The notes beneath the pieces are model-generated. The model did no database searches. It was given only the letters and a program-made list of their open reading frames with translations, and had not been told where the DNA came from. The position numbers and the translations under genes are program-made. DNA of 17,571 bases from Patescibacteria group bacterium (GTDB taxonomy: Bacteria > Patescibacteriota > UBA1384 > XYA2-FULL-43-10). Where the stretch lies: contig JBAYVT010000007.1 of assembly GCA_041674405.1 (NCBI GenBank), forward strand, positions 1 to 17,571. Direction: 5' to 3'. How positions within the stretch are numbered: the first letter of the stretch is position 1; every line of letters starts with the position of its first letter. Shown piece by piece: positions 2,989 to 17,571 of the stretch.

Positions 2989-3028
2989 ATACCCCAGAAC
3001 GTTAACAATATTATAGGAGGCAAACAAA

Positions 3029-4069: not shown

Positions 4070-4078
4070 CGTGAACCA

Positions 4079-4116: not shown

Positions 4117-4159
4117 AAAGAACTATTTTTCTAGAAGATAAAAATCCACATCGAGATCT

Positions 4160-5080
4160 TCAAATTTCTTCTTCAAATATTTTGAAAGAGGGGGAATATG
4201 GCACCGCTTTCAAGCCTTGTTCGCGAAGAATTATTGCCGGGTGCGAACAAATGCCGTATTTGACATAAACCAGGTTCTTGTGTTCCTTAATTTTGTTAAT
4301 TATCCGAAAAAATTCAGTCTCATCATCGCCTCGGGCCAGAGTGGTCAAAAGCAAAATATCCTGTTTGCCATTCCAGCTTCTAAGATCAGCAAAAGATTCG
4401 ACCTCAAACAAATTATGTTTATCGGAATCAAAATTAAAATTAGAAAAATGGCAGGTCTTTTTGAATTCCATTATTGTAAAATTTCCATCAGGCATTATGA
4501 AAAATTCATACAAAATGTCATCATCCCAGTCAAATTTTTTAATCTTTTGCCACAAATTTTTGATGTCGGCAATCAAATCCTCCGGATTATTCCGAACAAT
4601 TCTTTTTTCAAGGACGCTCCCATTCTCAAAAAGGCAAGTTTTTGGTGCTACCGAAATTTGCATCTTTGCTTTACTGCCGCTTATGATCACATTGTCGCAG
4701 CTTTTTGCCGACTCCGATTCCCAGACGCCATTGATTATGCTCATATAGTATATACCGCTGTTCTTAACAAAAGTGCCGCTGTATTTGGCGGTGACGAATC
4801 CTTGAACTATCGCCACGAGCTTGGGGGTGATTTTTTCTGAGATAAATTGATAAATTTCTTCGAAAGATTTGATTATCACACTTCTCGGAAGGTTTATCGT
4901 CCTATTTGCAGAAGAAAATCGGACTCCCATTCTGTCGCCATTAGTAAAGCCGGCATCCAGTAGTTCAGCAAATAATTTGTCTTTAGGGGGCAAATTCCGC
5001 AAAATCAAAAGATTCTGCTTAAACAGCCCCTTTTTCTTAAGCTCGGTTAGTGATTCGGCTTTTTGCCCAAGTTTCTTCAT
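4160..5080 (-). CDS. Small PEP-utilising-enzyme-like protein (PPDK/PEP-synthase N-terminal ATP-grasp-like region plus phosphohistidine swivel motif)
   Basis: 306-aa ORF. The N-terminus KKLGQKAESLTELKKKGL resembles the GGKAANLGEL opening of PEP/pyruvate-binding domains. The C-terminus YGICSHPAIILREQGLKAVP resembles the G-x-T-S-H-x-A-I-x-x-R-E-x-G-I-P-A-V mobile-domain motif with the catalytic His. Confidence 0.55.
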   Translation of the reverse strand: MKKLGQKAESLTELKKKGLFKQNLLILRNLPPKDKLFAELLDAGFTNGDRMGVRFSSANRTINLPRSVIIKSFEEIYQFISEKITPKLVAIVQGFVTAKYSGTFVKNSGIYYMSIINGVWESESAKSCDNVIISGSKAKMQISVAPKTCLFENGSVLEKRIVRNNPEDLIADIKNLWQKIKKFDWDDDILYEFFIMPDGNFTIMEFKKTCHFSNFNFDSDKHNLFEVESFADLRSWNGKQDILLLTTLARGDDETEFFRIINKIKEHKNLVYVKYGICSHPAIILREQGLKAVPYSPSFKIFEEEI

Positions 5081-5118
5081 AATCTATTTTCCCAACAGAC
5101 GATTAACATATTTTTTAT

Positions 5119-5562
5119 TTATTCTGCATAGTTTGGGTATTTGGGGTCGGTAAGATCGTCGATTATTTCTACCGGCTCGATAGTGCCTTGCCAAAAATTG
5201 ATTCCGAGCTCTGCAGCCCCTCGTTCACAAACTTTGATATAGCTGGCATATACCGGGAGTTGGGCGCTCTTCTTTTCAGGCCAAATGAAAGCGAAGCAAT
5301 CATTAGCGACCTCAACAAGATCGGAGCCAGATTCACGAGAAATCAAATCGTCCAGTTCACTATCATTGACTTTGAAATAAGCTACCTGAACTTCAGAATC
5401 AGGATTTTTTCGCATGTTTAAATAAGCCCGATCTTTAAATGGAGCATTAAATATTCGTTCGTATCCCTTAAGATTCAAGGGCGTTAATTTTTTAGTTGTC
5501 GGAATAGTCTTTTGTCGGCTCTTGCTATCGAGCAGCGAACCATAAGCTATAATTTTTTTCAT
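5119..5562 (-). CDS. Gamma-glutamylcyclotransferase-like (AIG2/ChaC fold) protein
   Basis: 147-aa ORF. N-terminal KIIAYGSLL matches the YGSL/YGTL signature, and GYERIFN and VAYFKV segments follow in ChaC-like order. GAAGGAG Shine-Dalgarno upstream (reverse complement of 5567-5573). Confidence 0.5.
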   Translation of the reverse strand: MKKIIAYGSLLDSKSRQKTIPTTKKLTPLNLKGYERIFNAPFKDRAYLNMRKNPDSEVQVAYFKVNDSELDDLISRESGSDLVEVANDCFAFIWPEKKSAQLPVYASYIKVCERGAAELGINFWQGTIEPVEIIDDLTDPKYPNYAE

Positions 5563-5583
5563 TTGGCTCCTTCGATGAGCTAA

Positions 5584-5823
5584 TCATTTCTCTAATACAT
5601 AAAAATCCGCATCGAGATCTTCGAATTTTTCGCGAAACCATTTGCGCGCGTCGGAAACTCCGCGATTGTAGAATGCCGGTCCGGCCTTTTTCAGAATGAA
5701 ATCCAGAACTATTTCTGCTCTCAGGTCGCCAAGATCCTCTTCAAATTCTTTTCTAAAAAAATCTTTGATCTCGCCGATCAATATTTTTTTATCATCTTCG
5801 TTTAGTTCAATTTCCTTTTTCAT
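5584..5823 (-). CDS. DUF2164 family protein
   Basis: 79-aa ORF. EEDLGDLRAEIVLDFILKKAGPAFYNRGVSDA...DLDADFYVLEK follows the DUF2164 pattern as I recall it: acidic stretch, LLDFF, G-x-x-x-YN-x-G, C-terminal L-E-x-Y-x-LE. Confidence 0.75.
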   Translation of the reverse strand: MKKEIELNEDDKKILIGEIKDFFRKEFEEDLGDLRAEIVLDFILKKAGPAFYNRGVSDARKWFREKFEDLDADFYVLEK

Positions 5824-5832
5824 AAATGCGGC

Positions 5833-6336
5833 TCATTTTTTAATAAATTTTTTCATATTCTTTACAAAAACCGGCATAGAGCCATATATTTCATGGACCA
5901 TATTACGCAGAACCGAATCACACTCTTTCGAATCGGGTGGAGGAATATGAAAAGATATCTTTTTGCCAGAAACAATTTCGCTAAACATCGGAACCTTGAT
6001 ACCAAAGTGCTCACATATCCAATCCTGATGATATTCTGCCATCGCCACGATCAGATCAGAATCATCAATTATTTTCTGGGTTAATTGAGTTCTTTTGTGC
6101 CCCGAAACATCAATTCCGATTTTTTTTAGTTCATCAAAGTGGGCAAAGTTATACCCGCTTGTATCAGTGCTCGTGTCTGTACCGGCAGAAGTAATATTGA
6201 GATTGGTAATGTTGTTTTTCTTTGAATATTCTTTTAAACAATATTCGGCCATCAAGCTGCGTGCGATATTATCCGAACAAACAAAACAGACGCTAGTTTT
6301 TCTAATTCCGGTTTTGGATTCAATTTCTTTTTTCAT
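5833..6336 (-). CDS. Low-molecular-weight protein phosphatase / arsenate-reductase-fold protein
   Basis: 167-aa ORF with an N-terminal C-X5-R-S P-loop (VCFVCSDNIARS). Its start overlaps the upstream gene stop by 4 nt (ATGA). Confidence 0.75.
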   Translation of the reverse strand: MKKEIESKTGIRKTSVCFVCSDNIARSLMAEYCLKEYSKKNNITNLNITSAGTDTSTDTSGYNFAHFDELKKIGIDVSGHKRTQLTQKIIDDSDLIVAMAEYHQDWICEHFGIKVPMFSEIVSGKKISFHIPPPDSKECDSVLRNMVHEIYGSMPVFVKNMKKFIKK

Positions 6337-6821
6337 TTTTTAAGGACTTTCAGAATAATTTTGGCGGTTTCTTCCGGAGCTTGCGATGAGTTGTCTATAA
6401 TGGTGGTTTTGAATCCGGGATTATTGATACCGATATCATAGTGATGCTTGACGCGTTTTGCTTCCCATTCATCAAGTTCGCGCGCGCCGCGGTTATTTGC
6501 TGCGATGTCAAGCTTCGGGTTTAGTGTAAAGGCGTGAATATCTTTCTTGTCGATGTCAATATTGGAAACTAGAAAATCGTAATTTTCCTTTGAAAGCGGG
6601 TAGTTGATTATAGTATTCAAACCTGTTTTTAGAAAATTATTGGCGACATCGGCAGCATTTTTGAGATTTAGTTTAATCAATTCATCACTGAGCGGGATAA
6701 AGGGTACAAAACTTCGCAGCTTATCGATTTCAATAGAAGCTGTATTTGGGAGTTCTTTTGCCAAAATTTCCGCTATGGTAGACTTTCCCGAATTGATTGA
6801 TCCGCTAATTACTATTAACAT
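6333..6821 (-). CDS. Small P-loop NTPase/kinase (AAA_33 / chloramphenicol-phosphotransferase-like size and layout)
   Basis: 162-aa ORF with Walker A at residues 6-14 (GSINSGKST). AAGGAGG Shine-Dalgarno immediately upstream (reverse complement of 6826-6832). Confidence 0.7.
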   Translation of the reverse strand: MLIVISGSINSGKSTIAEILAKELPNTASIEIDKLRSFVPFIPLSDELIKLNLKNAADVANNFLKTGLNTIINYPLSKENYDFLVSNIDIDKKDIHAFTLNPKLDIAANNRGARELDEWEAKRVKHHYDIGINNPGFKTTIIDNSSQAPEETAKIILKVLKK

Positions 6822-6871
6822 TTCTCCTCCTTGTACCCTAAGTATAACAAAAATATATTCGAAATATTATT

Positions 6872-8161
6872 TTATTGAGATACTGCTCCGCCAGCTCTTT
6901 TAACATGAGTCCATTCACATCCACCAACACCGGTTCTGTGTTCGCGCAAGAGTTTTGGAATGCTATAAAATCCTTTAATTGTTGCGATATATTCGACACA
7001 AGAAAGTATATACATCAAGAGATATGCAATCGGAACCATGACAGCAAATTTTGTTCTTTCATATATACTATATCCTTGCGTTGCTCCACTCGTGAGAATA
7101 ACGGTATAAAAACAAAAAGTAAGGACTGAGCCTGCAATTGTAGTAAAATCTCCGTTTACGAAGATTAAATAAAGAATATATCCAATCATAAGTGGCTCGA
7201 TAGCAGAAATTATTTCGGAAAATAAAGCATATGGCAGATAAAACCATGAAAGCAACTTTCCAAGTTTTCGATCTTTTGAAAAGAAAAGATCGCGCCTTTT
7301 CAAAAACGCCTGGTAACGGCCATATTTCCAGCGGTTTCGTTGTTTCAGAAGCTCGGGGATGCTGGCAACCGACTCAGAGAAAACTACCATCGACGGATCG
7401 TAGCCGATAAATTTCTTGTCTTTGTAGTGCAATATCATTTTCATCGATAGGTCGATATCCTCGGTGATCGTATCGGTATCATAACCGTTTAAAGTACGCA
7501 GTATTCTCATTCTGTACATAGAACCGACTCCTCCAACAATATATTGTATGCGGGTCATCGCTTCGGCTTTCTTCATCTGGTGATTTAGCATATACTCAAT
7601 TCTCTGGAGGAGATTGAGCATGCCTTTTCCGGGAATGATTTTTACATTGGATGCGAGAGCACCAACCCTCTTTTCGCGAAAAAATTCAACGGCTATTTTC
7701 AGCGCGTCCTTTGTTAGTACCGAGTCGGCATCAAGACACATAAAGAGCGAGCCCTTGGCGAATCTCAAGCCTTTATTCATTGCTTTCGCCTTGCCGCGGA
7801 CATTAACATTAAGAACCTTAATTTTTTTGAGTTTTCCTCTAAATTTGCGCTGGAAGAGAAGAGCAATATTTTTTGTTCTATCATCACTGGAATCATTTAC
7901 GATAATTAACTCAACATTTTTGTATGAACTTTTCACAATACTCACAAGATTGCGATACAGGGCAACTTCCTCATTGTGTGCAGGAACGATAATGGTAATA
8001 AGTGGGTGATAATGATGAGAATAATATCGTTGATTCTCGTCCGCATCATCTTTTCGCCCGATGGTTTTGATGTCGTATAGATCACTAGCAACAGAGAAAA
8101 ATGTCAACCGTACAAGATTGATAAAACTGAGCATTAGAACCAAATAAGCTATAAAAAGCAT
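6872..8161 (-). CDS. Family-2 glycosyltransferase, membrane-integrated processive type (PgaC/NodC/cellulose-synthase-like)
   Basis: 429-aa ORF. It has an N-terminal TM helix, IIVPAHNEE, VNDSSDD, a DAD motif (CLDADS), TED, and the Q-R-x-R-W motif (QRNRWKYG). Several C-terminal hydrophobic helices follow. Confidence 0.85.
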   Translation of the reverse strand: MLFIAYLVLMLSFINLVRLTFFSVASDLYDIKTIGRKDDADENQRYYSHHYHPLITIIVPAHNEEVALYRNLVSIVKSSYKNVELIIVNDSSDDRTKNIALLFQRKFRGKLKKIKVLNVNVRGKAKAMNKGLRFAKGSLFMCLDADSVLTKDALKIAVEFFREKRVGALASNVKIIPGKGMLNLLQRIEYMLNHQMKKAEAMTRIQYIVGGVGSMYRMRILRTLNGYDTDTITEDIDLSMKMILHYKDKKFIGYDPSMVVFSESVASIPELLKQRNRWKYGRYQAFLKRRDLFFSKDRKLGKLLSWFYLPYALFSEIISAIEPLMIGYILYLIFVNGDFTTIAGSVLTFCFYTVILTSGATQGYSIYERTKFAVMVPIAYLLMYILSCVEYIATIKGFYSIPKLLREHRTGVGGCEWTHVKRAGGAVSQ

Positions 8162-8166
8162 TGGAT

Positions 8167-8352
8167 TTATTGCTTAGCAGATTGCTTTTTTGCAAGATAG
8201 ATTTTGTAAAGCCGGATGCCCAAAATGATCAATGCGGCTAAAATCGCGGCTAAAATGATACCTTTAAAAAGCAGGTTGGTTGTGAAAAAGGAGCCGGCTG
8301 CAGCTGCAGTGGAGGCACCCAAAACACTTTTACTTGTAGAATCGCCTGACAT
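8167..8352 (-). CDS. Small single-pass membrane protein (first gene of the minus-strand cluster)
   Basis: 61-aa ORF with an AGGAGA Shine-Dalgarno 6 nt upstream. It has the hydrophobic helix GIILAAILAALIILGI and a basic C-terminus. Its stop is 5 nt before the GT2 start. Confidence 0.6.
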   Translation of the reverse strand: MSGDSTSKSVLGASTAAAAGSFFTTNLLFKGIILAAILAALIILGIRLYKIYLAKKQSAKQ

Positions 8353-8541
8353 TTGATTCTCCTGATGGTTAATTAGTTATAACGCTTAGTCATAACACAA
8401 AACCACAAAAATAGCAATAGCTGAGCAGAGATTATCAAAATTTCAGCCGGGTGTGGAGAAAATGATATTTAAATCGGAGAAAATTTGTGCTTTAAAATGG
8501 TTGTGGTGCTTTGGAAATTAGCATCATTTTATAATACCTAA

Positions 8542-8672
8542 ACCCCTCGGGGCATGGTGAAAACACGTAAGCGATAAAGACGGTCTTCTGTCTGGTATGC
8601 TTACGTGTCTCCGCTCGAAAGGGCGGATGGGCACTCGCAAGAGTGCCGCCAGCGGGAGACCATTTTTATTTT
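8542..8672 (+). ncRNA. Structured RNA leader or small RNA: long hairpin plus two tandem GNRA-capped hairpins, ending in a U-tract
   Basis: A perfect TATAAT at 8530-8535 lies just upstream. Hairpins: acacgtaagc (8563-8572) / gcttacgtgt (8599-8608); ccgctc-GAAA-gggcgg (8611-8626, includes a U.G pair); ggcactc-GCAA-gagtgcc (8630-8647). An alternative outer helix is gtctcc (8607-8612) / ggagac (8655-8660), followed by tttttatttt (8663-8672). The GNRA loops and the wobble pair only make sense on the plus strand. Confidence 0.45.
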
Positions 8673-8694
8673 GTCTAATTTTGGAGGGAACAAG

Positions 8695-8955
8695 ATGAGC
8701 GATGAACAGCAGGTTGTGAAAGTTGTTTGTGCTGATTGTGGGAAAGTAGTGCTTGAGATGAATAAGCTGAGTGAGTGCTTGAACCATTTCTGCCATGTGA
8801 ATAATATAATTGCGCCAGCGAAATACACGGGAGAGAATCTCCCTGATTTCTTAGAGTGCGACTGCAAAAATGTGCTCGGAGTCTTGGCTGCAGATCCCCA
8901 GTCTGTCCCAGCCTACTATCTGATAGCGGGGAAATATCGGTTAGCTACGAGGTGA
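8695..8955 (+). CDS. Small Cys/His-rich (zinc-ribbon-like) protein, function unknown
   Basis: 86 aa from ATG 8695. GGAGG at 8683-8687 lies 7 nt upstream. I do not use the track's GTG 8605 start because it lies inside the RNA structure. Motifs: CADCGK...CLNHFCH...ECDC. Confidence 0.6.
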   Translation: MSDEQQVVKVVCADCGKVVLEMNKLSECLNHFCHVNNIIAPAKYTGENLPDFLECDCKNVLGVLAADPQSVPAYYLIAGKYRLATR

Positions 8956-9094
8956 GGCTCAATAATAGAAATCAAGAAAGGTTCAAGTCTATGCTCAAAG
9001 AATCGAGACATTGGATACAGATTCTTACTTCGAGTATGGAAAAAATAAATTTGCTTTAGAGTTAGCAACTCCCAAGTGAGGTAGTGCTGAATCC

Positions 9095-9122
9095 TTTACT
9101 AAAAAGATGCTGTATGTATAAT
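9095..9122 (+). promoter_or_regulatory. Promoter candidate for the DUF4145 gene (TTTACT-16 nt-TATAAT)
   Basis: TTTACT at 9095-9100 and TATAAT at 9117-9122, 36 nt upstream of ATG 9158. Confidence 0.4.
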
Positions 9123-9157
9123 TGAATCATAAATCATAAAATAGTTAAGGTAAAATA

Positions 9158-9904
9158 ATGACCGACCAATCAGAATTAGATAATAGATATTTTATAGATA
9201 ATTATAAATACAATTGCCCTTTTTGCAATCGAAGGTCTGTCACTTATAGCGTTGTAAGTCAAAGCCAAATAAACTGGTCTGATGATAAAGTTGCACATGT
9301 GTACAGAGTAAATTGCGGTGGTTGTCAAAAAGTCTCAATCCATTTTAGTTATTACAATTTCAGAGTTAACTATAGTAGTTTCAACATTCCCGAAGACGAA
9401 AATGGGGAAACAGTTGATGGTTTTAACTTTTCTGACTTGGATAAATATTTTTTTTATCATAACCCAACTTCGTTCTTTACCGTAAACCCTCTCATCCCTA
9501 AAACGGTTAGGGAGTTGGTTTCGGAAGCTGAGGGTTGTAAAAAAATGAACTTCTTAGTGGGTGCTTCCGGTTCACTTCGAAAGGCAATCTACGAATTTCT
9601 AAAACTACAGAAAGCACAAGGAGATAATTATCAAGAAAAAATTAAATGGCTGAAGAAGAAATATCCGGTCATAGATCCAGTTTTATTTGACACTCTCGGA
9701 AATATTCAGGACATGACAAGCGAAAATATGCACGAAAAAGAGGGTTCGTGGGAACCATGGAAGAATAAAGACCTAGAGTTCTTGATAATGTTAGTCCGTC
9801 TAGTTTTAGACGAGGTGTATGTAATACCTTTGAAAAGAAAATCTGCCTTGGACAAGCTGAATCAATTGAAATCAAAATCAGAGCTGAGTAAGCGACTTAA
9901 TTAA
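9158..9904 (+). CDS. N-terminal zinc-ribbon fused to a DUF4145 domain
   Basis: 248-aa ORF. The N-terminus has CPFCNRR...CGGCQK (a 4-Cys ribbon). The C-terminal half, IPKTVRELVSEAEGC...GASGSLRKAIYEFL...LGNIQDMTSENMH...LEFLIMLVRLVLDEVYV, follows the DUF4145 helical pattern as I recall it. Confidence 0.7.
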   Translation: MTDQSELDNRYFIDNYKYNCPFCNRRSVTYSVVSQSQINWSDDKVAHVYRVNCGGCQKVSIHFSYYNFRVNYSSFNIPEDENGETVDGFNFSDLDKYFFYHNPTSFFTVNPLIPKTVRELVSEAEGCKKMNFLVGASGSLRKAIYEFLKLQKAQGDNYQEKIKWLKKKYPVIDPVLFDTLGNIQDMTSENMHEKEGSWEPWKNKDLEFLIMLVRLVLDEVYVIPLKRKSALDKLNQLKSKSELSKRLN

Positions 9905-9949
9905 ATTAACACCTTTTCAAGAATCCAAGAGGGGGAAGGACCTTTAATT

Positions 9950-10516
9950 TTAATGTTTCTTCAGGGTTGTAGGTGTTTTGCCCATAGCTTCCATTAAAGT
10001 CGGTGACGGAGAATTGAATTCTATCTCCAGTCCCAGCTCTTTTTTTAGTTCCAATATTCTCGTAAGTAGCTTCACATTTCGGTCCAGGAGTATCTGATCC
10101 TTCTTCTTGAGCGTTTGGCCAAAATTAGTGACAGTAAGATTGTTTATTTTATACAGTTCTCTTGATGCTATTTCATTATTTATCAAAAGGATGAGATGCA
10201 TCGTCAGGGCTAGTTGTCTGAAGGTTTCTTTGCCTGCCAACTCTTTAGGCAAATGCGTCTTTAGGATATCCCAAGTTGAAAAGTAATATGGAGTTAAGGT
10301 CGATAATAAGTGCTTGTCCTCAAGAATGGAGATTTCTTCTTCTAGATGAATGCAGTTAGCAGATAGCATTTCGAGGTTACTAATAATTTCCTCTTTAAAA
10401 GCTTCAAAGATATTCGTGTCTCTTTTGCTCTCTTGCTGGCTTTCTAATCGAAACGTAAGCAATACACCAAAACCTGTTGCCAAAATGCCGGAAATTAAAC
10501 CGAGTAAATATTGCAA
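9950..10516 (-). CDS. Single-pass membrane protein with helical cytoplasmic domain, function unknown
   Basis: 188-aa ORF. The apparent start is TTG, with AAAGGA 6 nt upstream. The N-terminal TM helix is LLGLISGILATGFGVLLTF. It is convergent with the DUF4145 gene across a 45-bp gap. Confidence 0.6.
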   Translation of the reverse strand: MQYLLGLISGILATGFGVLLTFRLESQQESKRDTNIFEAFKEEIISNLEMLSANCIHLEEEISILEDKHLLSTLTPYYFSTWDILKTHLPKELAGKETFRQLALTMHLILLINNEIASRELYKINNLTVTNFGQTLKKKDQILLDRNVKLLTRILELKKELGLEIEFNSPSPTLMEAMGKTPTTLKKH

Positions 10517-10590
10517 TTAGAGTCCTTTCGTGTACTTCTAGAATCTAACCTAACAAACACTCCCGCTCCTTTTAATCCTCTGAAGCACAA

Positions 10591-10640
10591 AATGTGTAAA
10601 AAATACTATGGTGGAGCTTATCACCGAGAATTTACACATT
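10591..10640. repeat. 10-bp perfect inverted repeat in divergent intergenic region
   Basis: aatgtgtaaa (10591-10600) and tttacacatt (10631-10640) with a 30-nt spacer. It lies between the divergent 9950-10516 gene and the DUF4065 operon. Confidence 0.5.
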
Positions 10641-10788
10641 ATACAAACGGAGGCTAGGCGCTGGAAGGAAATAATCTATCCCAAATTCCAGAGGCATCAT
10701 TTGACTTTATAGATGTAATCCCATAGTGTATTAGCACTATTAATAATAAAATGTTGATGCTATGATAGAACCAGGTAACGGAGGGGAT

Positions 10789-11283
10789 ATGTCTAATACA
10801 AAAGAGGTGGGGCAAATGGCTTCTGATGTGGCGAAATATTTTTTGTATCGAGCAAAAGAAGACGGGGATTATATTTCCCCTCTAAGGATTCAAAAGCTGG
10901 TTTACTACGGCTATGTGTGGCCCCTAGTCCTTAATGAAAAGAAGTTATTTTCTGAGCAGTTAGAAGCATGGCCTAATGGCCCAGTTGTACCAAGCCTCTA
11001 TAAAGAGCTGAAATCTTATGTTTCGAGCCCTATAGATGACAAGTACCTTAAAATTAAAACCCCAAAAGAATTTTCTGAGTTCTTGCATCTCAAATTTGAT
11101 GAAGACACGCTTGATGTTCTTGACCAAGTTTATAACCAATATATGACAAAGACACCATTCGAGCTTGTACTCCTAACTCATAATGAGGCGCCCTGGAAAA
11201 AGGCACGAGAACGAATGGATAATGGCGGCACAAATAATATTTTTGATTCAGACATACTCGAGTACTATTCAAAAACAACTTAA
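10789..11283 (+). CDS. DUF4065 (Panacea / SocA-like) antitoxin-type domain protein
   Basis: ISPLRIQKLVYYGYVWPLVLNEKKLFSEQLEAWPNGPVVPSLYKELKSY matches the DUF4065 core: KLQKLLYY..., the AW-x-x-GPV motif, then Y-x-x-(F/L)K. Start chosen at ATG 10789 after GGAGG (10779-10783). The track's ATG 10762 and ATG 10816 remain possible. Confidence 0.8.
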   Translation: MSNTKEVGQMASDVAKYFLYRAKEDGDYISPLRIQKLVYYGYVWPLVLNEKKLFSEQLEAWPNGPVVPSLYKELKSYVSSPIDDKYLKIKTPKEFSEFLHLKFDEDTLDVLDQVYNQYMTKTPFELVLLTHNEAPWKKARERMDNGGTNNIFDSDILEYYSKTT

Positions 11284-11285
11284 AA

Positions 11286-11699
11286 ATGGCCTCAAAAAAG
11301 AAAAGCGTAGCAGTAGTACCTGAACCTAATTTTGGGAATGAAAAACTCAAAATTAGTTTTGAGTATTATGATTCAGCATCATCGAAATATTGTTTGTCTA
11401 AATTTGAAAAAGATCAGGTCAGAGAAGCGCTTCTGAGACTCAGAGATATTAATGGCAAATCTTATATGGAACTTTATCGACAGAGAGACCATTATCATTT
11501 TCACCAAGTAAATTGGAAAGATACAGAAGAAAAAAATGGCTTCCCTCCTTGTGGAGTCAATGAATTTGATCCATTCCAGATAGCTCTTCACAATGTGAAT
11601 GAGTGGAAGGTAAGGGTCTTTGGGGGAATCCACAAAGGGACATTCTATATCGTATGGTTTGATCTTGAACACGAGATAGACCCTTCGATGAGAAGGTAA
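11286..11699 (+). CDS. Hypothetical protein, candidate toxin partner of the DUF4065 protein
   Basis: 137-aa ORF whose ATG lies 2 nt after the upstream stop, so it is probably translationally coupled. No TM segment. The C-terminus WKVRVFGGIHKGTFYIVWFDLEHEI is a beta-hairpin-like pattern faintly reminiscent of RelE/ParE-fold toxins; this is a weak call. Confidence 0.65.
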   Translation: MASKKKSVAVVPEPNFGNEKLKISFEYYDSASSKYCLSKFEKDQVREALLRLRDINGKSYMELYRQRDHYHFHQVNWKDTEEKNGFPPCGVNEFDPFQIALHNVNEWKVRVFGGIHKGTFYIVWFDLEHEIDPSMRR

Positions 11700-11709
11700 A
11701 ATTATACAG

Positions 11710-12525
11710 ATGGGCAGAAGAGTATATTATCCTCCGATCTATGTATGTTACAGAAAAGGCGATTCGCACTATCTGCTCTTTTGGATTGAGTTCGGAAATG
11801 ACGGGTCTGTTTATGTCTGGTTCTCAGAAAATCACCGGAAACTTTTTCAGGTTCTGGCATCACACGAACAGGAAGAACTGTCTGCAAAAATTTCCCAAAT
11901 TTCCGTAGAAGATAACCCTATTGAAGTCTATAACCCTCACATCTCATACCATTCCAGTGGAAGAGTCCACATCTCTGGATATGACAATCTTCATGACAAA
12001 CCAAAGGAGCATGTAATTGAAGATAGGGCGACGGAAAGTTTCCTTTCGGTCTGTATAAAAAAAATTGGCTTGCCTTTTTGTTCTATAATTAGCCCTGTCA
12101 TGACAGCAGAAAAATGGGCGCAACTTGAAGTTGTGAGCAAGGATGAATTTCTTAAGAAAAAATGGAATTATTCTGCATTGGTTGGAGGTGAAATAAAGAT
12201 AGCTAGCAATAATAACTCGGGAAGAACGCTGATCGCAATTGATTCATCATCTGTCAGCAAAAATCATGCCCTTACCACAGAAATAATTATTCATGGTTCT
12301 GGCCAGTTTGATTTTGACTCAGATCCTAATAAAAAAATAAAAAATATTATTGGTAAGGCTAGTTTCTCTAACGAAAAAGCCCCTGCGAAAATCAGCTTGC
12401 AATTCTCAACAATTCCTTTCAGTAGAAAGAAAGATAAAAGGAACACAAATTACATTTGTTTATATAATAACGATTATCACACCATTGTGCTTATCAAACC
12501 AACCGATCCTTTGCAGAACTCATAA
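11710..12525 (+). CDS. Hypothetical protein (third gene of the DUF4065 operon)
   Basis: 271-aa ORF starting 10 nt after the previous stop. I recognised no motif. It is His-rich near the N-terminus (HISYHSSGRVHISGY). Confidence 0.6.
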   Translation: MGRRVYYPPIYVCYRKGDSHYLLFWIEFGNDGSVYVWFSENHRKLFQVLASHEQEELSAKISQISVEDNPIEVYNPHISYHSSGRVHISGYDNLHDKPKEHVIEDRATESFLSVCIKKIGLPFCSIISPVMTAEKWAQLEVVSKDEFLKKKWNYSALVGGEIKIASNNNSGRTLIAIDSSSVSKNHALTTEIIIHGSGQFDFDSDPNKKIKNIIGKASFSNEKAPAKISLQFSTIPFSRKKDKRNTNYICLYNNDYHTIVLIKPTDPLQNS

Positions 12526-12529
12526 CGAG

Positions 12530-13747
12530 CTATTTCGTGCCATGCCACCTATATGCTCTCCGGAAACCAGCTTTTTCCGCTTGGGCTATTGTAGAACAAT
12601 ATAGCTCTCCCTTATTCACTTCGATTGTTGTGGTATCGTATTGTTGATCAAACGGAAGGTGATAAATCTTTTCTTTGTTTTTTCCGATATTGCATTTAAT
12701 ACAAGGGTATCCGATGTCCATTTTGCAATTTTCTACTAGATCAATATCCAGCTCGTTGGCAAATCTCCGAGCCAAATCAGACAGGCTTGTGCTGGTGTAA
12801 AATACCGCTTTAGGTTTTTTGTCCGGATTGGCGTCTCTGTATTGGAAAAAAGTGCCAAAGAGCTGGAAGATATGTTTTTCATGAATAGTTTTGAAATGAG
12901 ACCAATTTTTGCACTGCACAATCAGACATTCCTTGCCCTTGTGGCAGATCAGGTCACGGCCAAGGTCATCCAACCCTTGAAATATGCCGTGATAATTTAC
13001 GCTGTAACCTTCTTTTTCGTAAAGATAACCTATATAGCGCTCATACATTCTGCCAATAGCCCACTTTGATTTAGGACGCTTCCAATAGCGATCCAGCGCC
13101 ATTTGATTTCTTTCTGCAGAGGAGAGTTTTCGATATTCTTCTTTGGTCAAGAAATTTGATACAGGATCAGCCTTTTCCTTGTCCGTAAATTCTTGCAGAG
13201 CAATGTCCTCGTCTTCAATAATCTCGTCCTTAAAGTCTAACAGAAATGGTGCAATTGATTCGTAATATTCTATTATTGCTTGAGTTTGACGATTTTCAGC
13301 CTCTGCGGTTCTTCTTCTGCGACCCTCTTCCTTGACAACCTCAGCAGCCCGATAGGCTGGATTCCTTTTAGTAACCAGACTATTAACCAAATAATTGTCT
13401 CTAATCTCCTCATACCCGCTAATCACTGAATTCAGTGTTGGAAAGCCGGAGCTTTTTTCAAGTAAAGATTGTTTGTAAACCCCAGCCGAGTGTTCGAATG
13501 TTCGACTTTTGAGATCGAGACGGCTAATTTGTCCTTCAAGCTCGTCCAATTTCTGCTTCTCAACGAATTTATTTTCCTCATAAAAAGTATTGAATGCTAT
13601 TACTGCAACCACAGAAAAAAACCCGGCAAAAACCAAGACCCATCCAATAGAAACATAATCAAATATAACCCATGAGCCAAAAACCAAGGTTATTATTATG
13701 GCCACAGCTAGTGTTGAGAGATAGTTTTTGATGTATTTTTCAATCAA
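12530..13747 (-). CDS. Membrane-anchored Mrr-type (PD-(D/E)xK) restriction-endonuclease-domain protein with a C-terminal nuclease-associated motif
   Basis: 405-aa ORF with a TTG start and AAGGA 6 nt upstream. It has two N-terminal TM helices, a charged coiled-coil region, then an Mrr_cat-like core: YERYIGYLYEKEGYSV...GLDDLGRDLICHKGKECLIVQCKNWS...IHEKHIFQLFG. The C-terminus IKCNIGKNKEKIYHLPFDQQYDTT...GELYCSTIAQAEKAGFRRA matches a module I have seen fused to other bacterial nucleases. Confidence 0.75.
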   Translation of the reverse strand: MIEKYIKNYLSTLAVAIIITLVFGSWVIFDYVSIGWVLVFAGFFSVVAVIAFNTFYEENKFVEKQKLDELEGQISRLDLKSRTFEHSAGVYKQSLLEKSSGFPTLNSVISGYEEIRDNYLVNSLVTKRNPAYRAAEVVKEEGRRRRTAEAENRQTQAIIEYYESIAPFLLDFKDEIIEDEDIALQEFTDKEKADPVSNFLTKEEYRKLSSAERNQMALDRYWKRPKSKWAIGRMYERYIGYLYEKEGYSVNYHGIFQGLDDLGRDLICHKGKECLIVQCKNWSHFKTIHEKHIFQLFGTFFQYRDANPDKKPKAVFYTSTSLSDLARRFANELDIDLVENCKMDIGYPCIKCNIGKNKEKIYHLPFDQQYDTTTIEVNKGELYCSTIAQAEKAGFRRAYRWHGTK

Positions 13748-13837
13748 AACTCATCCTTATAACTTCGATTTCATTATACATCAAACTCTTGGCTATTTCT
13801 CCCAATCAATGATGAAGGCATATTTGTAGCCAATTCG

Positions 13838-14113
13838 CTAAGTATGAGAAATTGCGCTAATTATCACCATTGTAATAATCCATGCTAAGATTAGCCACCA
13901 ACCAATGGCCTTTGTTCTTCGTTCAACATTCTTCGAGAAGGTCTGAATTATTATCATAATTATTGAAACCCAGCTCAAGAAATCGCTTCCGAGTCTAATA
14001 AAATTTCCAACCACGCCCCCAACGATAAATCCAATAATAAGAAGACCGATCCCGATAAGTAGCACAAGATTATAGCTCAGATTCTTACTCTTTTTCGGCT
14101 GTTCTGACTCCAT
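13838..14113 (-). CDS. Small three-pass membrane protein
   Basis: 91 aa from ATG 14113 (MESEQPKK...), preceded by a perfect AAGGAGG with 5-nt spacing. The track's TTG 14131 start actually contains this Shine-Dalgarno sequence. Three hydrophobic segments. Confidence 0.7.
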   Translation of the reverse strand: MESEQPKKSKNLSYNLVLLIGIGLLIIGFIVGGVVGNFIRLGSDFLSWVSIIMIIIQTFSKNVERRTKAIGWWLILAWIITMVIISAISHT

Positions 14114-14133
14114 TATTACCTCCTTTTCCAAAA

Positions 14134-14550
14134 CTAATTGTTTCTTGTATATAGATACCTAGTATTTATCGCTGAACTAATTTTCCCATGAGTTGAATTA
14201 ATTTCCGATTCGCATTTGTCTCCCCCCGGACACTCAATGCCTTCTTTTTTGAGAAGGGACAAAATTTTAGATATTTGTTGATCTAAAAACAAGTGATTAA
14301 TCTTTCCTCCTTCATAGATTTTTTCTAATTCTTCAGCAGGAATTTCATTAACCAGTTTATTCATCTTTCTGTTAAAACGATTCTCTTTTGCAAAAAAATA
14401 GTACAAAAAAGGAGCAGCTATTATTAGGATCGCCCACTCTGAGATATATAGGAACAAAATGTATCCTAATAGTAAAACAACCAGAATTAGTCCGATATAT
14501 TTCACAGTAGGGGCGAAAAACTTTGTAAACCAATGCTCAATTTTATCCAT
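14134..14550 (-). CDS. Two-pass membrane protein with cytoplasmic C-terminal domain (CPGGDKC)
   Basis: 138 aa from ATG 14550 (MDKIEHW...), with GAAGG 8 nt upstream; the track's TTG 14583 start is less likely. Its stop lies 20 nt before the start of the next gene. Confidence 0.65.
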   Translation of the reverse strand: MDKIEHWFTKFFAPTVKYIGLILVVLLLGYILFLYISEWAILIIAAPFLYYFFAKENRFNRKMNKLVNEIPAEELEKIYEGGKINHLFLDQQISKILSLLKKEGIECPGGDKCESEINSTHGKISSAINTRYLYTRNN

Positions 14551-14593
14551 TCGCTTGGCCTTCGTTTTAATAAAAAAGGACAACCACCTAGGT

Positions 14594-14711
14594 TGTCGAG
14601 ACCAGCATCAGGTTTGACCCTAATGTTTGTTGGTGATTGCCCTATTTATAGGGTCAACCACCAAACACAAAAATGTTGGTAGTTTTATTCAAACTAATAC
14701 TGGTCTCGACA
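14594..14711 (-). ncRNA. 118-nt nested inverted-repeat element; candidate 5' leader or small RNA of the membrane-protein/nuclease genes
   Basis: A 12-bp perfect closing repeat, tgtcgagaccag (14594-14605) / ctggtctcgaca (14700-14711). The central hairpin pairs 14630-14644 with 14649-14664 around a 4-nt loop. One position is A.C on the plus strand but G.U on the minus strand. Segment 14650-14659 can instead pair with 14611-14621. Confidence 0.45.
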
Positions 14712-14716
14712 TGATA

Positions 14717-14745
14717 AATATAACAAAAATAGTGCAATACCACAA
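14717..14745 (-). promoter_or_regulatory. Promoter candidate (minus strand TTGTGG-17 nt-TATATT) firing into the 118-nt element
   Basis: The reverse complement of 14740-14745 is TTGTGG and of 14717-14722 is TATATT, with a 17-nt spacer. The predicted start is near 14710, at the first arm of the closing stem. Confidence 0.35.
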
Positions 14746-14766
14746 TGAAATTTATGGGTTGGGGAA

Positions 14767-14819
14767 TTGACCAACTTAATTCATATTTACTTGGTCAAAC
14801 CAGCAAATGCCCATAATAT
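14767..14819 (+). promoter_or_regulatory. Promoter candidate (TTGGTC-17 nt-TAATAT) whose -35 is one arm of an 8-bp palindrome (operator candidate)
   Basis: ttgaccaa (14767-14774) and ttggtcaa (14791-14798) form a perfect inverted repeat with a 16-nt spacer. TTGGTC at 14791-14796 and TAATAT at 14814-14819, upstream of the 14977 gene. Confidence 0.4.
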
Positions 14820-14976
14820 TCCCCCTCCGGCTATTGTGGATGTTATATAAGGGATACTGATGTGTTATTGTGAGTGTTATATAGACGCACGAATGATAGA
14901 AAATGATGTCGTCTATAAAAATATGAATTGTATTGCTATGCTTGAAGTGTACCGTCGCAACCATCATCGATAAAAA

Positions 14977-15618
14977 ATGTCTTCAGAATTAGATGAAATT
15001 ATTAAGAGAATCAATCTAGTATTAAGATCTAAAAAATCCGAGTTCTTTTTTCTTGGTAAAGAGTTGGAAGATAGTCCGACTAAAAGATCAATAATCCATC
15101 AATTATCAGATTTAGGCGTCTTGCATATTGGGCTGGATGAACCATTTTCCTGGAAAGACTTAGACATATCAAAAGTTGATCGATCCGTAAGCAATAGATA
15201 TTCTTCCTTACATGAATCCGAAAAATACAATGAAGCATTCAGGGAAGAACTTGAAAAGCAGATTGACTGGAAAATGACGATATCAATTGATGAAGAAAAA
15301 TTTAGAGAACTGCTTCAATCTGAAAAATTACGCTGGGATGGCGATGATCTCACATTCAAAGACGAAAAAATAAAATTTACAAGAAATAAGCGGCCGTATT
15401 TTTTGCTCAAAACATTATTTTCAAATCCTGATAAATTGTGGGGCTATGATGAAATTGCCGCAGAATGGAGCGAAGAATATAGCAAAAATGATTGGAGCAA
15501 ATATTATCAAGCTGCGTATTCTGCAAATGAATCAATTGCAAAAACAACCAAGATCAAGGATTTTCTGTTAATAACCAGCAAGGATGTCCGAATCAATCCC
15601 CTCCGGCTAGAAAAGTAG
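14977..15618 (+). CDS. Putative DNA-binding regulator with C-terminal winged-helix (OmpR/PhoB-type effector-like) region
   Basis: 213-aa ORF. The C-terminal third, LTFKDEKIKFTRNKRPYFLLKTLFSNPDKLWGYDEIAAEW...DVRINP, resembles the trans_reg_C layout. No clear Shine-Dalgarno sequence. An intrinsic terminator follows. Confidence 0.55.
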   Translation: MSSELDEIIKRINLVLRSKKSEFFFLGKELEDSPTKRSIIHQLSDLGVLHIGLDEPFSWKDLDISKVDRSVSNRYSSLHESEKYNEAFREELEKQIDWKMTISIDEEKFRELLQSEKLRWDGDDLTFKDEKIKFTRNKRPYFLLKTLFSNPDKLWGYDEIAAEWSEEYSKNDWSKYYQAAYSANESIAKTTKIKDFLLITSKDVRINPLRLEK

Positions 15619-15650
15619 TTTACAAACATTTACAAACCTCTCAAGTGATA

Positions 15651-15680
15651 ACCTGAATTCAAACTTAATTCAGGTTTTTT
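15651..15680 (+). terminator. Intrinsic terminator
   Basis: acctgaatt (15651-15659), 7-nt loop, aattcaggt (15667-15675), running into tttttt (15675-15680). It starts 33 nt after the stop at 15618. Confidence 0.75.
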
Positions 15681-15874
15681 ATGTCAAAGGTCGGAGAACC
15701 AAAGAAGAAAATATCGAAAGAAATATTAGCCAATGAAAATATCGCATGGGCAAGATTTTTGTACAAGCAATATAAGAAAAAGAAGCTGAAGCAGTCTTTA
15801 TCTTTTGACGAAAAAAGTATAGGATAGAAGTGGACAAAATACTACGACACAACTTAAATTTTGAAGACGCAAAT

Positions 15875-15930
15875 GGCAGTCTCTTATTTCCGTGTCGTAG
15901 CGGATTGTCCAGAGACTGCCTTTTGTGTTG
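15875..15930 (+). terminator. 10-bp perfect hairpin plus T-tract immediately upstream of the recombinase RBS (attenuator or insulator candidate)
   Basis: ggcagtctct (15875-15884) / agagactgcc (15911-15920), then ttttgtgtt. AGGAGG at 15932-15937 and ATG at 15945. Confidence 0.4.
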
Positions 15931-15944
15931 TAGGAGGAATAAAA

Positions 15945-17522
15945 ATGAGTGCTAAATCAATCGCTCTCTGCCGGGTGTCAACACCAGAACAGAGAATTGA
16001 GGGCCATAGCCTTGAAAGACAAGAGGCTAGTGTTGTAAAAGCCTCTGAGGAACTTGAATCGCCAATCGTTAAGACTTGGTCACTTGACCAGTCGAGTCGA
16101 GTTGGAAAAAATCTAAACCGCAGAGACCTGAAAGAAATGCTGGACTTTTGCAAACTGAACAAACAAGTTAAGTTTCTAATCATAGACGAAGTTGATCGCT
16201 TTATGAGAGATATCAAGTACTTCTATTATTTTGAAGCTGTATTTGAGCAACAAGGTGTAAAAGTATGGTATGCATCACAGCCAGAACTAAATACAAATGA
16301 CATGATGGGAAAGCTCCAAAAGCTCTTCTTAGTATTTAGAGCAGAAGCCAGTAACGATGAAAGGACTTGCAAATCATTAAAAGGATTAAAGGACCGCATA
16401 GCGAAGGGATATTGGCCATTTCCGCTCCACCAAGGCTACATTAAAGGCTCAGAACCAGGTTTGCATATTCCAGATCCTGAACGATATAATTTGCTCCGAG
16501 AGGCATTCGAAGAGGTTCTAATAAGGCGTTTTACAGTCAATGAAGCTTTGGATCGGCTTAATAATAATGGGTACAAATCTCCAAACGGAAAACCCCTCCG
16601 GATTGATAAATTCAGAGAACTATTAAAAGACCCATATTATGCGGGTGCGCTTAGAGTTGAGTCATGGGATAAAGAATTATGGAATGATAACGGATTACAT
16701 GAGTCTCTGATAACTATGGAAATGTGGGAGGAGCTTCAGCTTGTTGTCAATAATAAAATGCGCAAATTCCAACGAAAACAGCACAATCCAGCGTTTCCAC
16801 TATCAAATCTATTTTATTGTGATGAATGTGATGAGAAAAAAATCGTTGGTTATATCCATAGGAATGGGAAGAGCAATTGGACAGGCGAAGAATATCGTTG
16901 TAGGGGATGCAACAAAGTTATTAAAAAGGACGATCTTCATTCAACGACTGACACTTTTTTCGATAGCATAAAAATGCTTGAAAGTAACACACACGATTTT
17001 AAGAGTGCTTTGCGTGAAGTTTGGGCGGAAGAGCAGAAAGAAGGCTTCAATCGGACTAAACAGCTTAAAATTAGGTTAGAAAACCTGAACACTGAGAAAA
17101 ATAAGCTTGCGGTTGGCATAGTTATGAATCCGGAGCTTAAAGATGATTTGGCTCAATCATTAGAAGAGAAAAAGACTCAAATCAAGAATGTCGAGAAGGA
17201 AATATCGGAAGCAGAGAACATAGAGAGCGATTTCCTCGAGTTTGTGGAGTTTTCGATTGATTACATCAAAGATCTCAAAGCTAACTGGTGGGATCTTGGA
17301 CACGATGAACGGCTAGAGTGTAAACATTTGATAACAAAAGACAAAATTTTTACAAATTTCTCTGAAAAAGTTTACACACCAGAAATTAGTCCTATTTTGA
17401 AGCTAATTTGCAATATAAAAGGGGCAGAAACTGCCCCAAAATCCCAAGTGGTGGAGGTGAGGGGAGTTGCACCCCTGTCCAAAAGGCTTCAAACATATCG
17501 TCTACAAGTTTTGCCTTGGTGA
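15945..17522 (+). CDS. Large serine recombinase (phage-integrase-type)
   Basis: 525 aa from ATG 15945, with AGGAGG 7 nt upstream; the track's TTG 15861 extension is rejected. The resolvase catalytic motif is ALCRVSTPEQ...SLERQ...DEVDRFMR. A recombinase domain (GYWPFPLHQGY), a zinc ribbon (CDECDEK...YRCRGCNK) and a long Glu/Lys-rich coiled coil follow. Confidence 0.9.
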   Translation: MSAKSIALCRVSTPEQRIEGHSLERQEASVVKASEELESPIVKTWSLDQSSRVGKNLNRRDLKEMLDFCKLNKQVKFLIIDEVDRFMRDIKYFYYFEAVFEQQGVKVWYASQPELNTNDMMGKLQKLFLVFRAEASNDERTCKSLKGLKDRIAKGYWPFPLHQGYIKGSEPGLHIPDPERYNLLREAFEEVLIRRFTVNEALDRLNNNGYKSPNGKPLRIDKFRELLKDPYYAGALRVESWDKELWNDNGLHESLITMEMWEELQLVVNNKMRKFQRKQHNPAFPLSNLFYCDECDEKKIVGYIHRNGKSNWTGEEYRCRGCNKVIKKDDLHSTTDTFFDSIKMLESNTHDFKSALREVWAEEQKEGFNRTKQLKIRLENLNTEKNKLAVGIVMNPELKDDLAQSLEEKKTQIKNVEKEISEAENIESDFLEFVEFSIDYIKDLKANWWDLGHDERLECKHLITKDKIFTNFSEKVYTPEISPILKLICNIKGAETAPKSQVVEVRGVAPLSKRLQTYRLQVLPW

Positions 17523-17551
17523 TTTGTTCGAATAATAGCTCAACCAAGGCA
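17512..17551. repeat. 40-bp dyad overlapping the recombinase stop codon (terminator or recombinase-site candidate)
   Basis: tgccttggt (17512-17520) and accaaggca (17543-17551), 9 bp perfect with a 22-nt spacer. No T-tract follows. Confidence 0.5.
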
Positions 17552-17571
17552 GAAAACTATTATCTTATCTC

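What the first reader, a model, noticed from the sequence alone, without database searches (positions are those of the whole stretch)
10762..12525. Panacea (DUF4065) antitoxin-like gene heading a tightly packed three-gene operon with two unrecognisable partners
The first protein carries the DUF4065 core (KLVYY...AWPNGPVVPSLY). That domain is established as a promiscuous antitoxin paired with many unrelated toxins (PanA/PanT, SocA/SocB). Here a 137-aa protein follows 2 nt downstream and a 271-aa protein 10 nt after that. I could assign neither to a family. A tripartite Panacea locus, or a new PanT toxin class with an accessory factor, would be novel. The toxin and antitoxin roles are inference from gene order only.
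Basis: partly seen in the sequence, partly recalled or inferred. Interest (0 to 1): 0.7.

Follow-up and report, generated by a model that had tools for sequence, protein, structure and literature searches.

The report
Known Panacea toxin-antitoxin pair plus orphan gene
The first two genes are an ordinary member of an already catalogued toxin-antitoxin family (a Panacea antitoxin with a RelE-like RNase toxin), and the third gene is an unrelated orphan that travels with this pair in no other genome found.

Summary
The three ORFs exist as described, with 2-nt and 10-nt gaps. ORF1 is a Panacea/DUF4065 protein (Pfam 68 bits); its likely start is 10789, not 10762.

The 137-aa protein can be assigned to a family. 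It is 44% identical to Nitrolancea hollandica WP_008476559.1, which Kurata et al. 2022 list in predicted PanT toxin cluster T1. The label pT1 occurs 217 times in their table of 1,268 pairs. The one T1 member they tested was toxic in E. coli and labelled "mRNase".

An exhaustive profile search finds 606 relatives. A confident AlphaFold model (pLDDT 92) has RelE/YafQ/YoeB toxins as its best PDB matches, though weakly. H73, R110 and H129 are near-invariant. That pattern matches the H-R-H triad described for the PB-BECR1 RNase domain of Menshen NsnC, whose PADLOC model 48 of 130 relatives match.

PanA lies directly upstream of the toxin homologue in all 16 full-length loci (14 genomes of several phyla, 2 viral contigs) and in 3 short contigs.

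The 271-aa protein has a single homologue among 5.8 billion protein clusters. That homologue sits in a locus without PanA or T1, and no other PanA-T1 locus carries it.

The tripartite or new-toxin-class reading is therefore not supported. This is a new member of a known kind, of low interest.

The parts
10789..11283 (+). panA: Panacea/DUF4065-domain antitoxin with no N-terminal extra domain. It is 164 aa from the likely start at 10789; the longest ORF starts at 10762 and gives 173 aa. Predicted pI is 5.0.
   Evidence: PF13274 at E=1.3e-18, 68.4 bits. phrog_1281 at 3e-42. GGAGG lies before the ATG at 10789. The ENA gene call is 164 aa. Orthologues at 37-55% identity lie directly upstream of the T1 gene in 14 of 14 genomes. 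pI.
11286..11699 (+). panT: predicted toxin of PanT cluster T1 (related to the NCBIfam MAG6450 family and to Menshen NsnC PB-BECR1). The model shows a RelE/BECR-like fold with conserved H73, R110 and H129, plus D126 and Q98. It starts 2 nt after the panA stop codon.
   Evidence: 44% identity to the T1 member WP_008476559.1. 606 profile hits. NF046006 at E=1e-5 for the window protein and at E<=0.01 for 124/130 relatives. PADLOC NsnC C-terminus matched by 48/130 relatives. AF2 pLDDT 92.4. Best Foldseek matches are RelE, YafQ and YoeB. Residue conservation.
11710..12525 (+). 271-aa near-orphan gene. It lies 10 nt downstream on the same strand with no detectable terminator between, so it is probably co-transcribed, but it is not part of the conserved module. 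It is soluble and basic (pI 8.5), with no family or fold assignment.
   Evidence: One homologue only (P0006, 50% identity) among 5.8 billion protein clusters. No hits in metagenome, viral, phage or plasmid scans. No Pfam, PHROG, NCBIfam or PADLOC family. AF2 pLDDT 30.7. Absent from every other PanA-T1 locus. Terminator scan.
10591..10640 (.). Perfect 10-nt inverted repeat, AATGTGTAAA-30 nt-TTTACACATT, in the 245-nt intergenic region upstream of panA. It is a candidate operator or regulatory element; this is untested inference.
   Evidence: the repeat finder. The JGI assembly of the same locus breaks into a 10-N scaffold gap at exactly this place.

Best explanation
Bases 10789-11699 encode a two-gene PanAT toxin-antitoxin module of the already catalogued T1 type.

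The downstream 137-aa protein is the toxin. It is a small BECR/RelE-fold RNase. Its conserved H73, R110 and H129 (with D126 and Q98) would form the active site, and it would arrest growth by cutting RNA needed for translation.

The upstream acidic Panacea-domain protein (PanA) is the antitoxin. It is made first from the same transcript, with 2-nt translational coupling. It most likely neutralises the toxin by direct binding, as shown for other PanAT pairs.

The module sits in a low-GC region of a Patescibacteria genome next to a large serine recombinase and a tmRNA gene. Its likely role is stabilising that element or aborting phage infection.

The 271-aa gene behind it is a lineage-restricted orphan. 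It is probably co-transcribed but is not a component of the system.

Shown here: domain identity, family membership, conserved two-gene synteny, absence of three-gene synteny, fold class (weakly) and residue conservation. Inferred: RNase activity, its target, the mode of neutralisation and the biological role.
For: PanA is a Panacea protein: PF13274 at 68.4 bits.

The toxin belongs to a known cluster. It is 44% identical (E=8e-30) to the L014 protein, which is exactly WP_008476559.1, with PanA WP_008476557.1. That pair is row 1 of Dataset S1 of PMC8832971: cluster T1, order A|T, gap -1. 'pT1' occurs 217 times in that dataset. The tested T1 member from Clostridium cadaveris is listed as 'toxic' and typed 'mRNase'.

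Synteny is consistent. PanA lies immediately upstream in 14/14 genome loci found by toxin homology alone; they come from CPR lineages, Abditibacteria, Thermomicrobia/Nitrolancea and a Gammaproteobacterium. The same holds in 2/2 viral contigs and in 3 short metagenomic contigs.

Fold: the AF2 model has pLDDT 92.4 and pTM 0.83, with strand-helix-helix-strand-strand-strand order. The best Foldseek PDB match is P. horikoshii RelE 1wmi_A (probability 0.91). 21 of the top 50 matches are RelE, YafQ, YoeB, ParE, HigB or BrnT toxins.

Active site: H73 is kept in 126/130 relatives, R110 in 129/130, H129 in 130/130, D126 in 130/130 and Q98 in 124/130. 48/130 relatives match the C-terminal part of the PADLOC NsnC model. 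PMC12065111 describes that region as PB-BECR1, a YafQ-like RNase domain with an H-R-H triad.

Charge: PanA has pI 5.0 and the toxin pI 7.8.

Third gene: a single homologue, in an unrelated context.
Against: No member of this exact clade has been tested.

The one tested T1 toxin was not neutralised by its own PanA in E. coli. So a complete T1 toxin-antitoxin pair has never been demonstrated.

No RelE, ParE, YafQ or YoeB Pfam model matches any of the 130 relatives.

The window protein scores 26 bits against NF046006, below its 40-bit cut-off.

The 10-nt spacing and the lack of a terminator mean the 271-aa gene is probably expressed with the pair. A local functional link cannot be excluded.
Confidence: 0.78

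Rival explanations
1. This is a genuine tripartite system. The 271-aa protein would be an accessory component of this particular PanAT module, such as a sensor, chaperone, regulator or second effector.
For: The gene is on the same strand 10 nt downstream. No terminator-like site lies between the genes. It ends the operon, with a convergent gene starting 4 nt beyond it. Kurata et al. found accessory third genes in a minority of PanAT loci.
Against: None of the 16 other full-length PanA-T1 loci, and neither short contig with downstream sequence, has a homologue; the downstream genes there differ from locus to locus. The only homologue (50% identity) follows three unrelated small ORFs after a 130-nt gap, with no PanA or T1 in the 1.28 kb upstream. 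[quoted passage not shown]
Confidence: 0.07
2. The pair is a type VI-like system, as in SocAB, rather than type II. PanA would act as a proteolytic adaptor that delivers the toxin to a host protease instead of blocking it by binding.
For: The Panacea domain is the SocA domain. NCBIfam SocA_antitoxin matches at E=6.9e-22. The tested T1 PanA failed to neutralise its toxin in E. coli. That would be expected if a cognate host protease were needed.
Against: The SocA equivalog score of 78 bits is far below its 190-bit cut-off. The toxin is unrelated to SocB, which is in cluster T10. All PanAT pairs examined biochemically formed direct complexes (abstract of PMC8832971).
Confidence: 0.1
3. The 137-aa protein is not a toxin in its native host. 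The conserved PanA-T1 pairing would then reflect some other two-protein function.
For: Eight predicted PanTs were non-toxic in E. coli. No biochemical activity is known for any T1, MAG6450 or PB-BECR1 protein.
Against: One T1 member was toxic. The fold class and the invariant His/Arg/His/Asp residues are typical of BECR RNase toxins. The same domain is the predicted effector of the Menshen antiphage system.
Confidence: 0.05

Closest known systems
PanAT pairs of toxin cluster T1 (Kurata et al. 2022, PNAS, PMC8832971), e.g. Nitrolancea hollandica WP_008476557.1/WP_008476559.1 and Clostridium cadaveris WP_074844973.1/WP_074844970.1
   Same: PanA has no extra N-terminal domain. Gene order is antitoxin first, with the two genes overlapping or nearly touching. 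The toxin is about 140 aa. Identity to the Nitrolancea pair is 44% for the toxin and 47% for the antitoxin.
   Different: The host is a Patescibacteria (CPR) MAG. This locus has an extra orphan gene downstream. The pair has not been tested.
PB-BECR1 domain of Menshen effector NsnC (Li et al. 2025, NAR, PMC12065111)
   Same: The domain appears homologous: the PADLOC NsnC model matches over positions 187-280 of 284 (window protein E=0.0069, 48/130 relatives, best 3.4e-7). It shares an H-R-H set of conserved residues and YafQ/RelE-like structural neighbours.
   Different: Here the domain stands alone with an N-terminal strand-helix-helix extension and is not fused to an inactive-PIN domain. No NsnA (ParB-DUF262) or NsnB (ABC ATPase) gene is nearby. 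It is controlled by a Panacea antitoxin instead.
RelE/YafQ/YoeB ribosome-dependent mRNA interferases (type II toxins)
   Same: The secondary-structure order is strand-helix-helix then a three-stranded antiparallel sheet, with a conserved His just after the last strand and an Arg on the middle strand. These toxins are the best structural matches.
   Different: There is no detectable sequence similarity and no Pfam match. The protein is about 45 residues longer, with an insertion at residues 71-94. The antitoxin is of a different family. The structural scores are weak.
SocAB (type VI TA, Caulobacter)
   Same: The antitoxin carries the same DUF4065/Panacea domain.
   Different: The toxin is unrelated to SocB, which blocks the DnaN sliding clamp. 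The SocA equivalog cut-off is not reached.
Tripartite TA systems (toxin-antitoxin-chaperone modules, paaR-paaA-parE)
   Same: Three co-directional, tightly spaced genes.
   Different: In those systems the third gene is conserved with the pair. Here it is not, in any other locus.

Membership tests
PanAT (Panacea antitoxin-toxin) system | One partner carries the Panacea/DUF4065 domain above Pfam's gathering score | tested here: met
   PF13274 at 68.4 bits against a cut-off of 25.7, E=1.3e-18
PanAT (Panacea antitoxin-toxin) system | Two co-directional genes no more than 100 nt apart, with the architecture conserved in at least 2 species (criteria of Kurata et al.) | tested here: met
   The gap here is 2 nt. 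The pair is conserved in 14/14 genomes of several phyla and in 2 viral contigs.
PanAT (Panacea antitoxin-toxin) system | The partner is toxic and PanA neutralises it, with direct complex formation | not testable with these tools
   From the literature only: one T1 toxin was toxic in E. coli but was not neutralised by its PanA.
PanT toxin cluster T1 (Kurata et al. 2022) | Significant sequence homology to a listed T1 protein | tested here: met
   tblastn gives 44% identity over 120 aa, E=8e-30, to the L014 protein. That protein is exactly WP_008476559.1, which is listed as T1.
NCBIfam NF046006 MAG6450 family | Score at or above the curated 40-bit cut-off | tested here: not met
   The window protein scores 26 bits, E=1e-5. 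124/130 relatives match at E<=0.01, best 3.4e-10. It is related to this family but is not a member by the curated cut-off.
RelE/ParE (BECR) fold RNase toxins | Characteristic fold shown by significant structural similarity to solved members | tested here: inconclusive
RelE/ParE (BECR) fold RNase toxins | Match to a RelE, ParE, YafQ, YoeB or HigB sequence family | tested here: not met
   No such Pfam match for any of the 130 relatives, even at E<=10. No PDB sequence match.
RelE/ParE (BECR) fold RNase toxins | RNase activity with conserved catalytic residues | not testable with these tools
   H73, R110, H129 and D126 are invariant or nearly so. Whether they cluster in space could not be checked because no model coordinates were available.
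Menshen antiphage system (NsnABC) | NsnA (ParB-DUF262) and NsnB (ABC ATPase) genes next to the effector | tested here: not met
   No PADLOC NsnA or NsnB match among the window proteins. Only the effector-domain homology is shared.
Tripartite TA / PanAT with accessory protein | The third gene is conserved next to the pair in other genomes | tested here: not met
   None of the 16 full-length loci and neither of the 2 short contigs with downstream sequence has it. The sole homologue lies in a locus without PanA or T1.
SocAB type VI TA | SocA equivalog score and a SocB-type toxin partner | tested here: not met
   NF047745 scores 78 bits against a 190-bit cut-off. The partner is T1, not SocB, which is T10.

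The most novel reading that the evidence does not exclude
The 271-aa near-orphan (two known members, no detectable fold or family) could be a lineage-specific third component recruited to this PanA-T1 module in a Patescibacteria mobile element. It might be a phage sensor or a second effector under PanA control. That would make this a locally evolved tripartite Panacea system.
Probability: 0.06. Interest if true: 0.5.

Novelty: new member of a known kind. Interest (0 to 1): 0.15.

Why it matters
The finding matters little beyond annotation. It shows that the T1-type PanAT module, catalogued in 2022, is also present in ultra-small CPR/Patescibacteria genomes.

One useful by-product came out of the work. 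Three things appear to be the same RNase-like domain family with a conserved His-Arg-His set:
- the widespread PanT cluster T1;
- the NCBIfam "MAG6450 family";
- the PB-BECR1 effector domain of the Menshen antiphage system.

That gives concrete active-site residues (H73, R110, H129) to mutate in a toxin cluster whose only tested member was toxic but could not be neutralised. I did not find this link stated in the papers I read.

The 271-aa protein remains an uncharacterised orphan.

Tried and rejected
1. 271-aa protein, sequence searches. I tried Pfam, PHROGs, NCBIfam and PADLOC, two searches of 5.8 billion protein clusters including a profile search at E<=10, PDB sequence profiles, and metagenome, viral, phage and plasmid scans. 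All of this found only one homologue.

2. 271-aa protein, structure. AlphaFold on the 2-sequence alignment gave pLDDT 30.7, which is unusable, so no fold search was run on it.

3. A possible link between the 271-aa protein and the T1 toxin. I noticed a 'VWFSENH' versus 'VWFDLEH' resemblance. Profile-profile comparison gave 0.9% probability, so I rejected it as chance.

4. Similarity between the 271-aa protein and the genes flanking other PanA-T1 loci. phmmer found nothing better than E=0.9.

5. tblastn of the 137-aa protein against the phage and plasmid collections gave nothing significant.

6. The PDB sequence-profile search with the 130-member alignment gave only spurious beta-secretase hits at E=0.2.

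8. A literature search for 'MAG6450' found only two incidental gene-list mentions.

I repeated it with a 12-member alignment.

Full report
**Observation.** The window contains three co-directional ORFs at 10762..11283 (173 aa), 11286..11699 (137 aa) and 11710..12525 (271 aa), with 2-nt and 10-nt spacers. The first matches Pfam PF13274 SocA_Panacea at E=1.3e-18, 68.4 bits against a cut-off of 25.7. It also matches phrog_1281 at 3e-42.

One detail needs correcting. The ATG at 10789 follows a GGAGG sequence and is the start used by the ENA gene call, giving 164 aa. Orthologues begin only 8-12 residues before the conserved DVAKYF. So 10762 is probably only the longest possible ORF start.

The source is a Patescibacteria MAG (protein names WC080_04665 and WC080_04670). 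The same locus was assembled from a second sample.

**The 137-aa protein can be assigned to a family.** Word-indexed searching found only three close relatives. An exhaustive HMMER search with their profile found 606 cluster representatives at E<=1e-3 and 132 at E<=1e-10, nearly all about 140 aa long. None of 130 aligned relatives matches a Pfam family. However, 124/130 match NCBIfam NF046006 'MAG6450 family' at E<=0.01; the window protein itself scores 26 bits, below the 40-bit cut-off.

A scan of one genome per species, using only the toxin alignment as query, returned 14 loci. They come from Roizmanbacteria, Saccharibacteria, Peregrinibacteria, Gracilibacteria, Minisyncoccus, Abditibacteria, Nitrolancea/Thermomicrobia and a Gammaproteobacterium.

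One of these is Nitrolancea hollandica Lb. Its two proteins are exactly WP_008476557.1 and WP_008476559.1. That pair is the first row of Dataset S1 of Kurata et al. 2022 (PMC8832971): PanA without an N-terminal domain, predicted PanT, cluster T1, order A|T, gap -1. The window protein is 44% identical to it, E=8e-30.

The label 'pT1' occurs 217 times in that table of 1,268 predicted pairs. The one T1 protein tested, Clostridium cadaveris WP_074844970.1, is recorded as 'toxic', 'failed to neutralise' and typed 'mRNase'. The 137-aa protein is thus a member of a large, published, predicted PanT cluster and not a new class.

**What the toxin probably is.** AlphaFold2 with the 130-sequence alignment gave a confident model, pLDDT 92.4 and pTM 0.83. 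Its secondary-structure order is:
- strand 22-24;
- helices 42-56 and 60-70;
- an insertion;
- three long antiparallel strands at 95-102, 108-116 and 119-126.

In my alignment H73 is kept in 126/130 sequences, R110 in 129/130, H129 in 130/130, D126 in 130/130 and Q98 in 124/130. The window protein has all five. I infer that H73, R110 and H129 are the catalytic set of an RNase.

**Synteny.** tblastn with the three window proteins against all fetched loci shows a PanA orthologue (37-55% identity) ending at or overlapping the toxin start in 14/14 genome loci. The same holds in 2/2 viral contigs that carry distant toxin homologues of 27-30% identity. In three short metagenomic contigs the sequence directly upstream of the toxin gene encodes a PanA C-terminal portion. 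Because these loci were found by the toxin alone, this is an unbiased test of the pairing.

The third gene fails the same test. No locus has a 271-aa homologue. What follows the toxin gene varies between lineages. Related Peregrinibacteria/Gracilibacteria loci share the same downstream ORF, other loci have convergent genes or unrelated ORFs, and there are often gaps of more than 150 nt. Nothing downstream resembles the 271-aa protein even at E about 1.

**The 271-aa protein.** It has exactly one homologue, P0006, at 50% identity over 98% of its length. This is all that turned up among 5.8 billion protein clusters, even with a profile at E<=10. Metagenome, viral, phage and plasmid scans found no more.

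That homologue sits on a 2.2-kb contig behind three unrelated small ORFs and a 130-nt gap, with no PanA or T1. The protein has no Pfam, PHROG, NCBIfam, PADLOC or PDB match. It has no transmembrane segment and a pI of 8.5. Its AlphaFold model is unusable at pLDDT 30.7. A short motif resemblance to the toxin is chance (hhalign probability 0.9%).

It is a real gene, because the reading frame is conserved at 50% identity. With a 10-nt spacer and no terminator it is probably co-transcribed. Nothing, however, links it functionally to the pair. Kurata et al. also found that third genes accompany only small fractions of any PanAT type and judged them not generally involved.

**Mechanism, most likely.** panA and panT are transcribed together and translationally coupled. 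The acidic PanA (pI 5.0) binds and blocks the mildly basic toxin (pI 7.8). This is by analogy with the PanAT pairs shown to form complexes. When PanA is depleted, the BECR-fold toxin cleaves RNA and arrests translation. The RNase activity, its target and the mode of neutralisation are inferred.

The main caveat is that the only tested T1 toxin was not rescued by its PanA in E. coli. This leaves room for a host-factor-dependent, SocA-like mode.

**Context.** GC content drops from about 0.55 to about 0.38 near base 4100. The neighbourhood of the module contains:
- a membrane-anchored Mrr_cat protein with a 'sunset' domain;
- a phrog_1305 'DNA binding protein' homologue;
- a large serine recombinase;
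- the 3' part of a tmRNA gene at the window's end.

Two assemblies of the locus are identical up to base 17455 and then diverge, 7 nt into the tmRNA 3' end. This suggests a site-specific recombination junction and hence that the module rides on a mobile element. I did not resolve this.

**Verdict.** It is a new member of a known kind and of low interest.

The small added value is the link between PanT cluster T1, the MAG6450 family and Menshen PB-BECR1, together with a proposed H-R-H active site.

Noticed in passing
window 17449-17571 (-) and 15861-17522 (+); L019 15747-17205: Rfam finds the 3' part of a tmRNA gene at the window's end (RF00023, 55.4 bits; its CCA end is at 17449). A terminator-like hairpin lies at 17420-17437. 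The large serine recombinase ORF overlaps both. The ENA assembly of the same locus is 100% identical over window 1710-17455. It then diverges sharply, 7 nt into the tmRNA 3' end, into a longer recombinase C-terminus, an HTH_3 gene and a PLDc_2 gene. This looks like alternative att junctions of a mobile element at ssrA.
   Followed up: partly
window 10591-10640: A perfect 10-nt inverted repeat, AATGTGTAAA/TTTACACATT with a 30-nt spacer, lies upstream of panA. The JGI assembly of the same locus has a 10-N scaffold gap replacing window 10596-10646, exactly here. It may be an operator, or a spot that assemblers handle badly.
   Followed up: partly
window 8535-8647 (+): A LOOT RNA (RF03000) matches at 60.6 bits against a gathering score of 46.4, E=1.7e-9. 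It lies in the region between the glycosyltransferase block and the 248-aa gene.
   Followed up: no
window 1-4100 versus 4100-17571: There is a sharp compositional break: GC is 0.51-0.60 in much of the first 4 kb, dipping to 0.43-0.47 around 2000-3500, and 0.35-0.42 in the rest. Either the left part or the right part is foreign DNA, or the contig is chimeric.
   Followed up: no
window 12530-13747 (-): A 405-aa protein has hydrophobic N-terminal segments, an Mrr_cat restriction-endonuclease domain (E=6e-9) and a C-terminal 'sunset' domain (NF051437, 26.4 bits against a 27-bit cut-off). It is convergent with the 271-aa gene, and the two stop codons are 4 nt apart.
   Followed up: no
window 9158-9904 (+): A 248-aa protein with an N-terminal CxxC...CxxC zinc-ribbon-like motif matches phrog_1305 'DNA binding protein' (6.7e-8). 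It also matches the PADLOC candidate defence protein PD-T7-4 weakly (E=0.003).
   Followed up: no
window 6333-6821 (-): A 162-aa P-loop kinase-like protein has a borderline Zeta_toxin match (22.0 bits against a 22.3-bit cut-off). It sits next to a low-molecular-weight phosphatase gene at 5833-6336.
   Followed up: no
L003 694-909 (+): In one metagenomic PanA-T1 locus the toxin gene is followed, 9 nt later, by a 71-aa ORF made of 'YI(D/Q)(N/D)NYIYGP' repeats. It is another lineage-specific downstream ORF.
   Followed up: no
L004 2-100: In this locus the PanA reading frame upstream of the toxin homologue ends early (…SAFELVN*), before the conserved LTHNE.PW motif. It may be a decayed antitoxin or an assembly error.
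   Followed up: no
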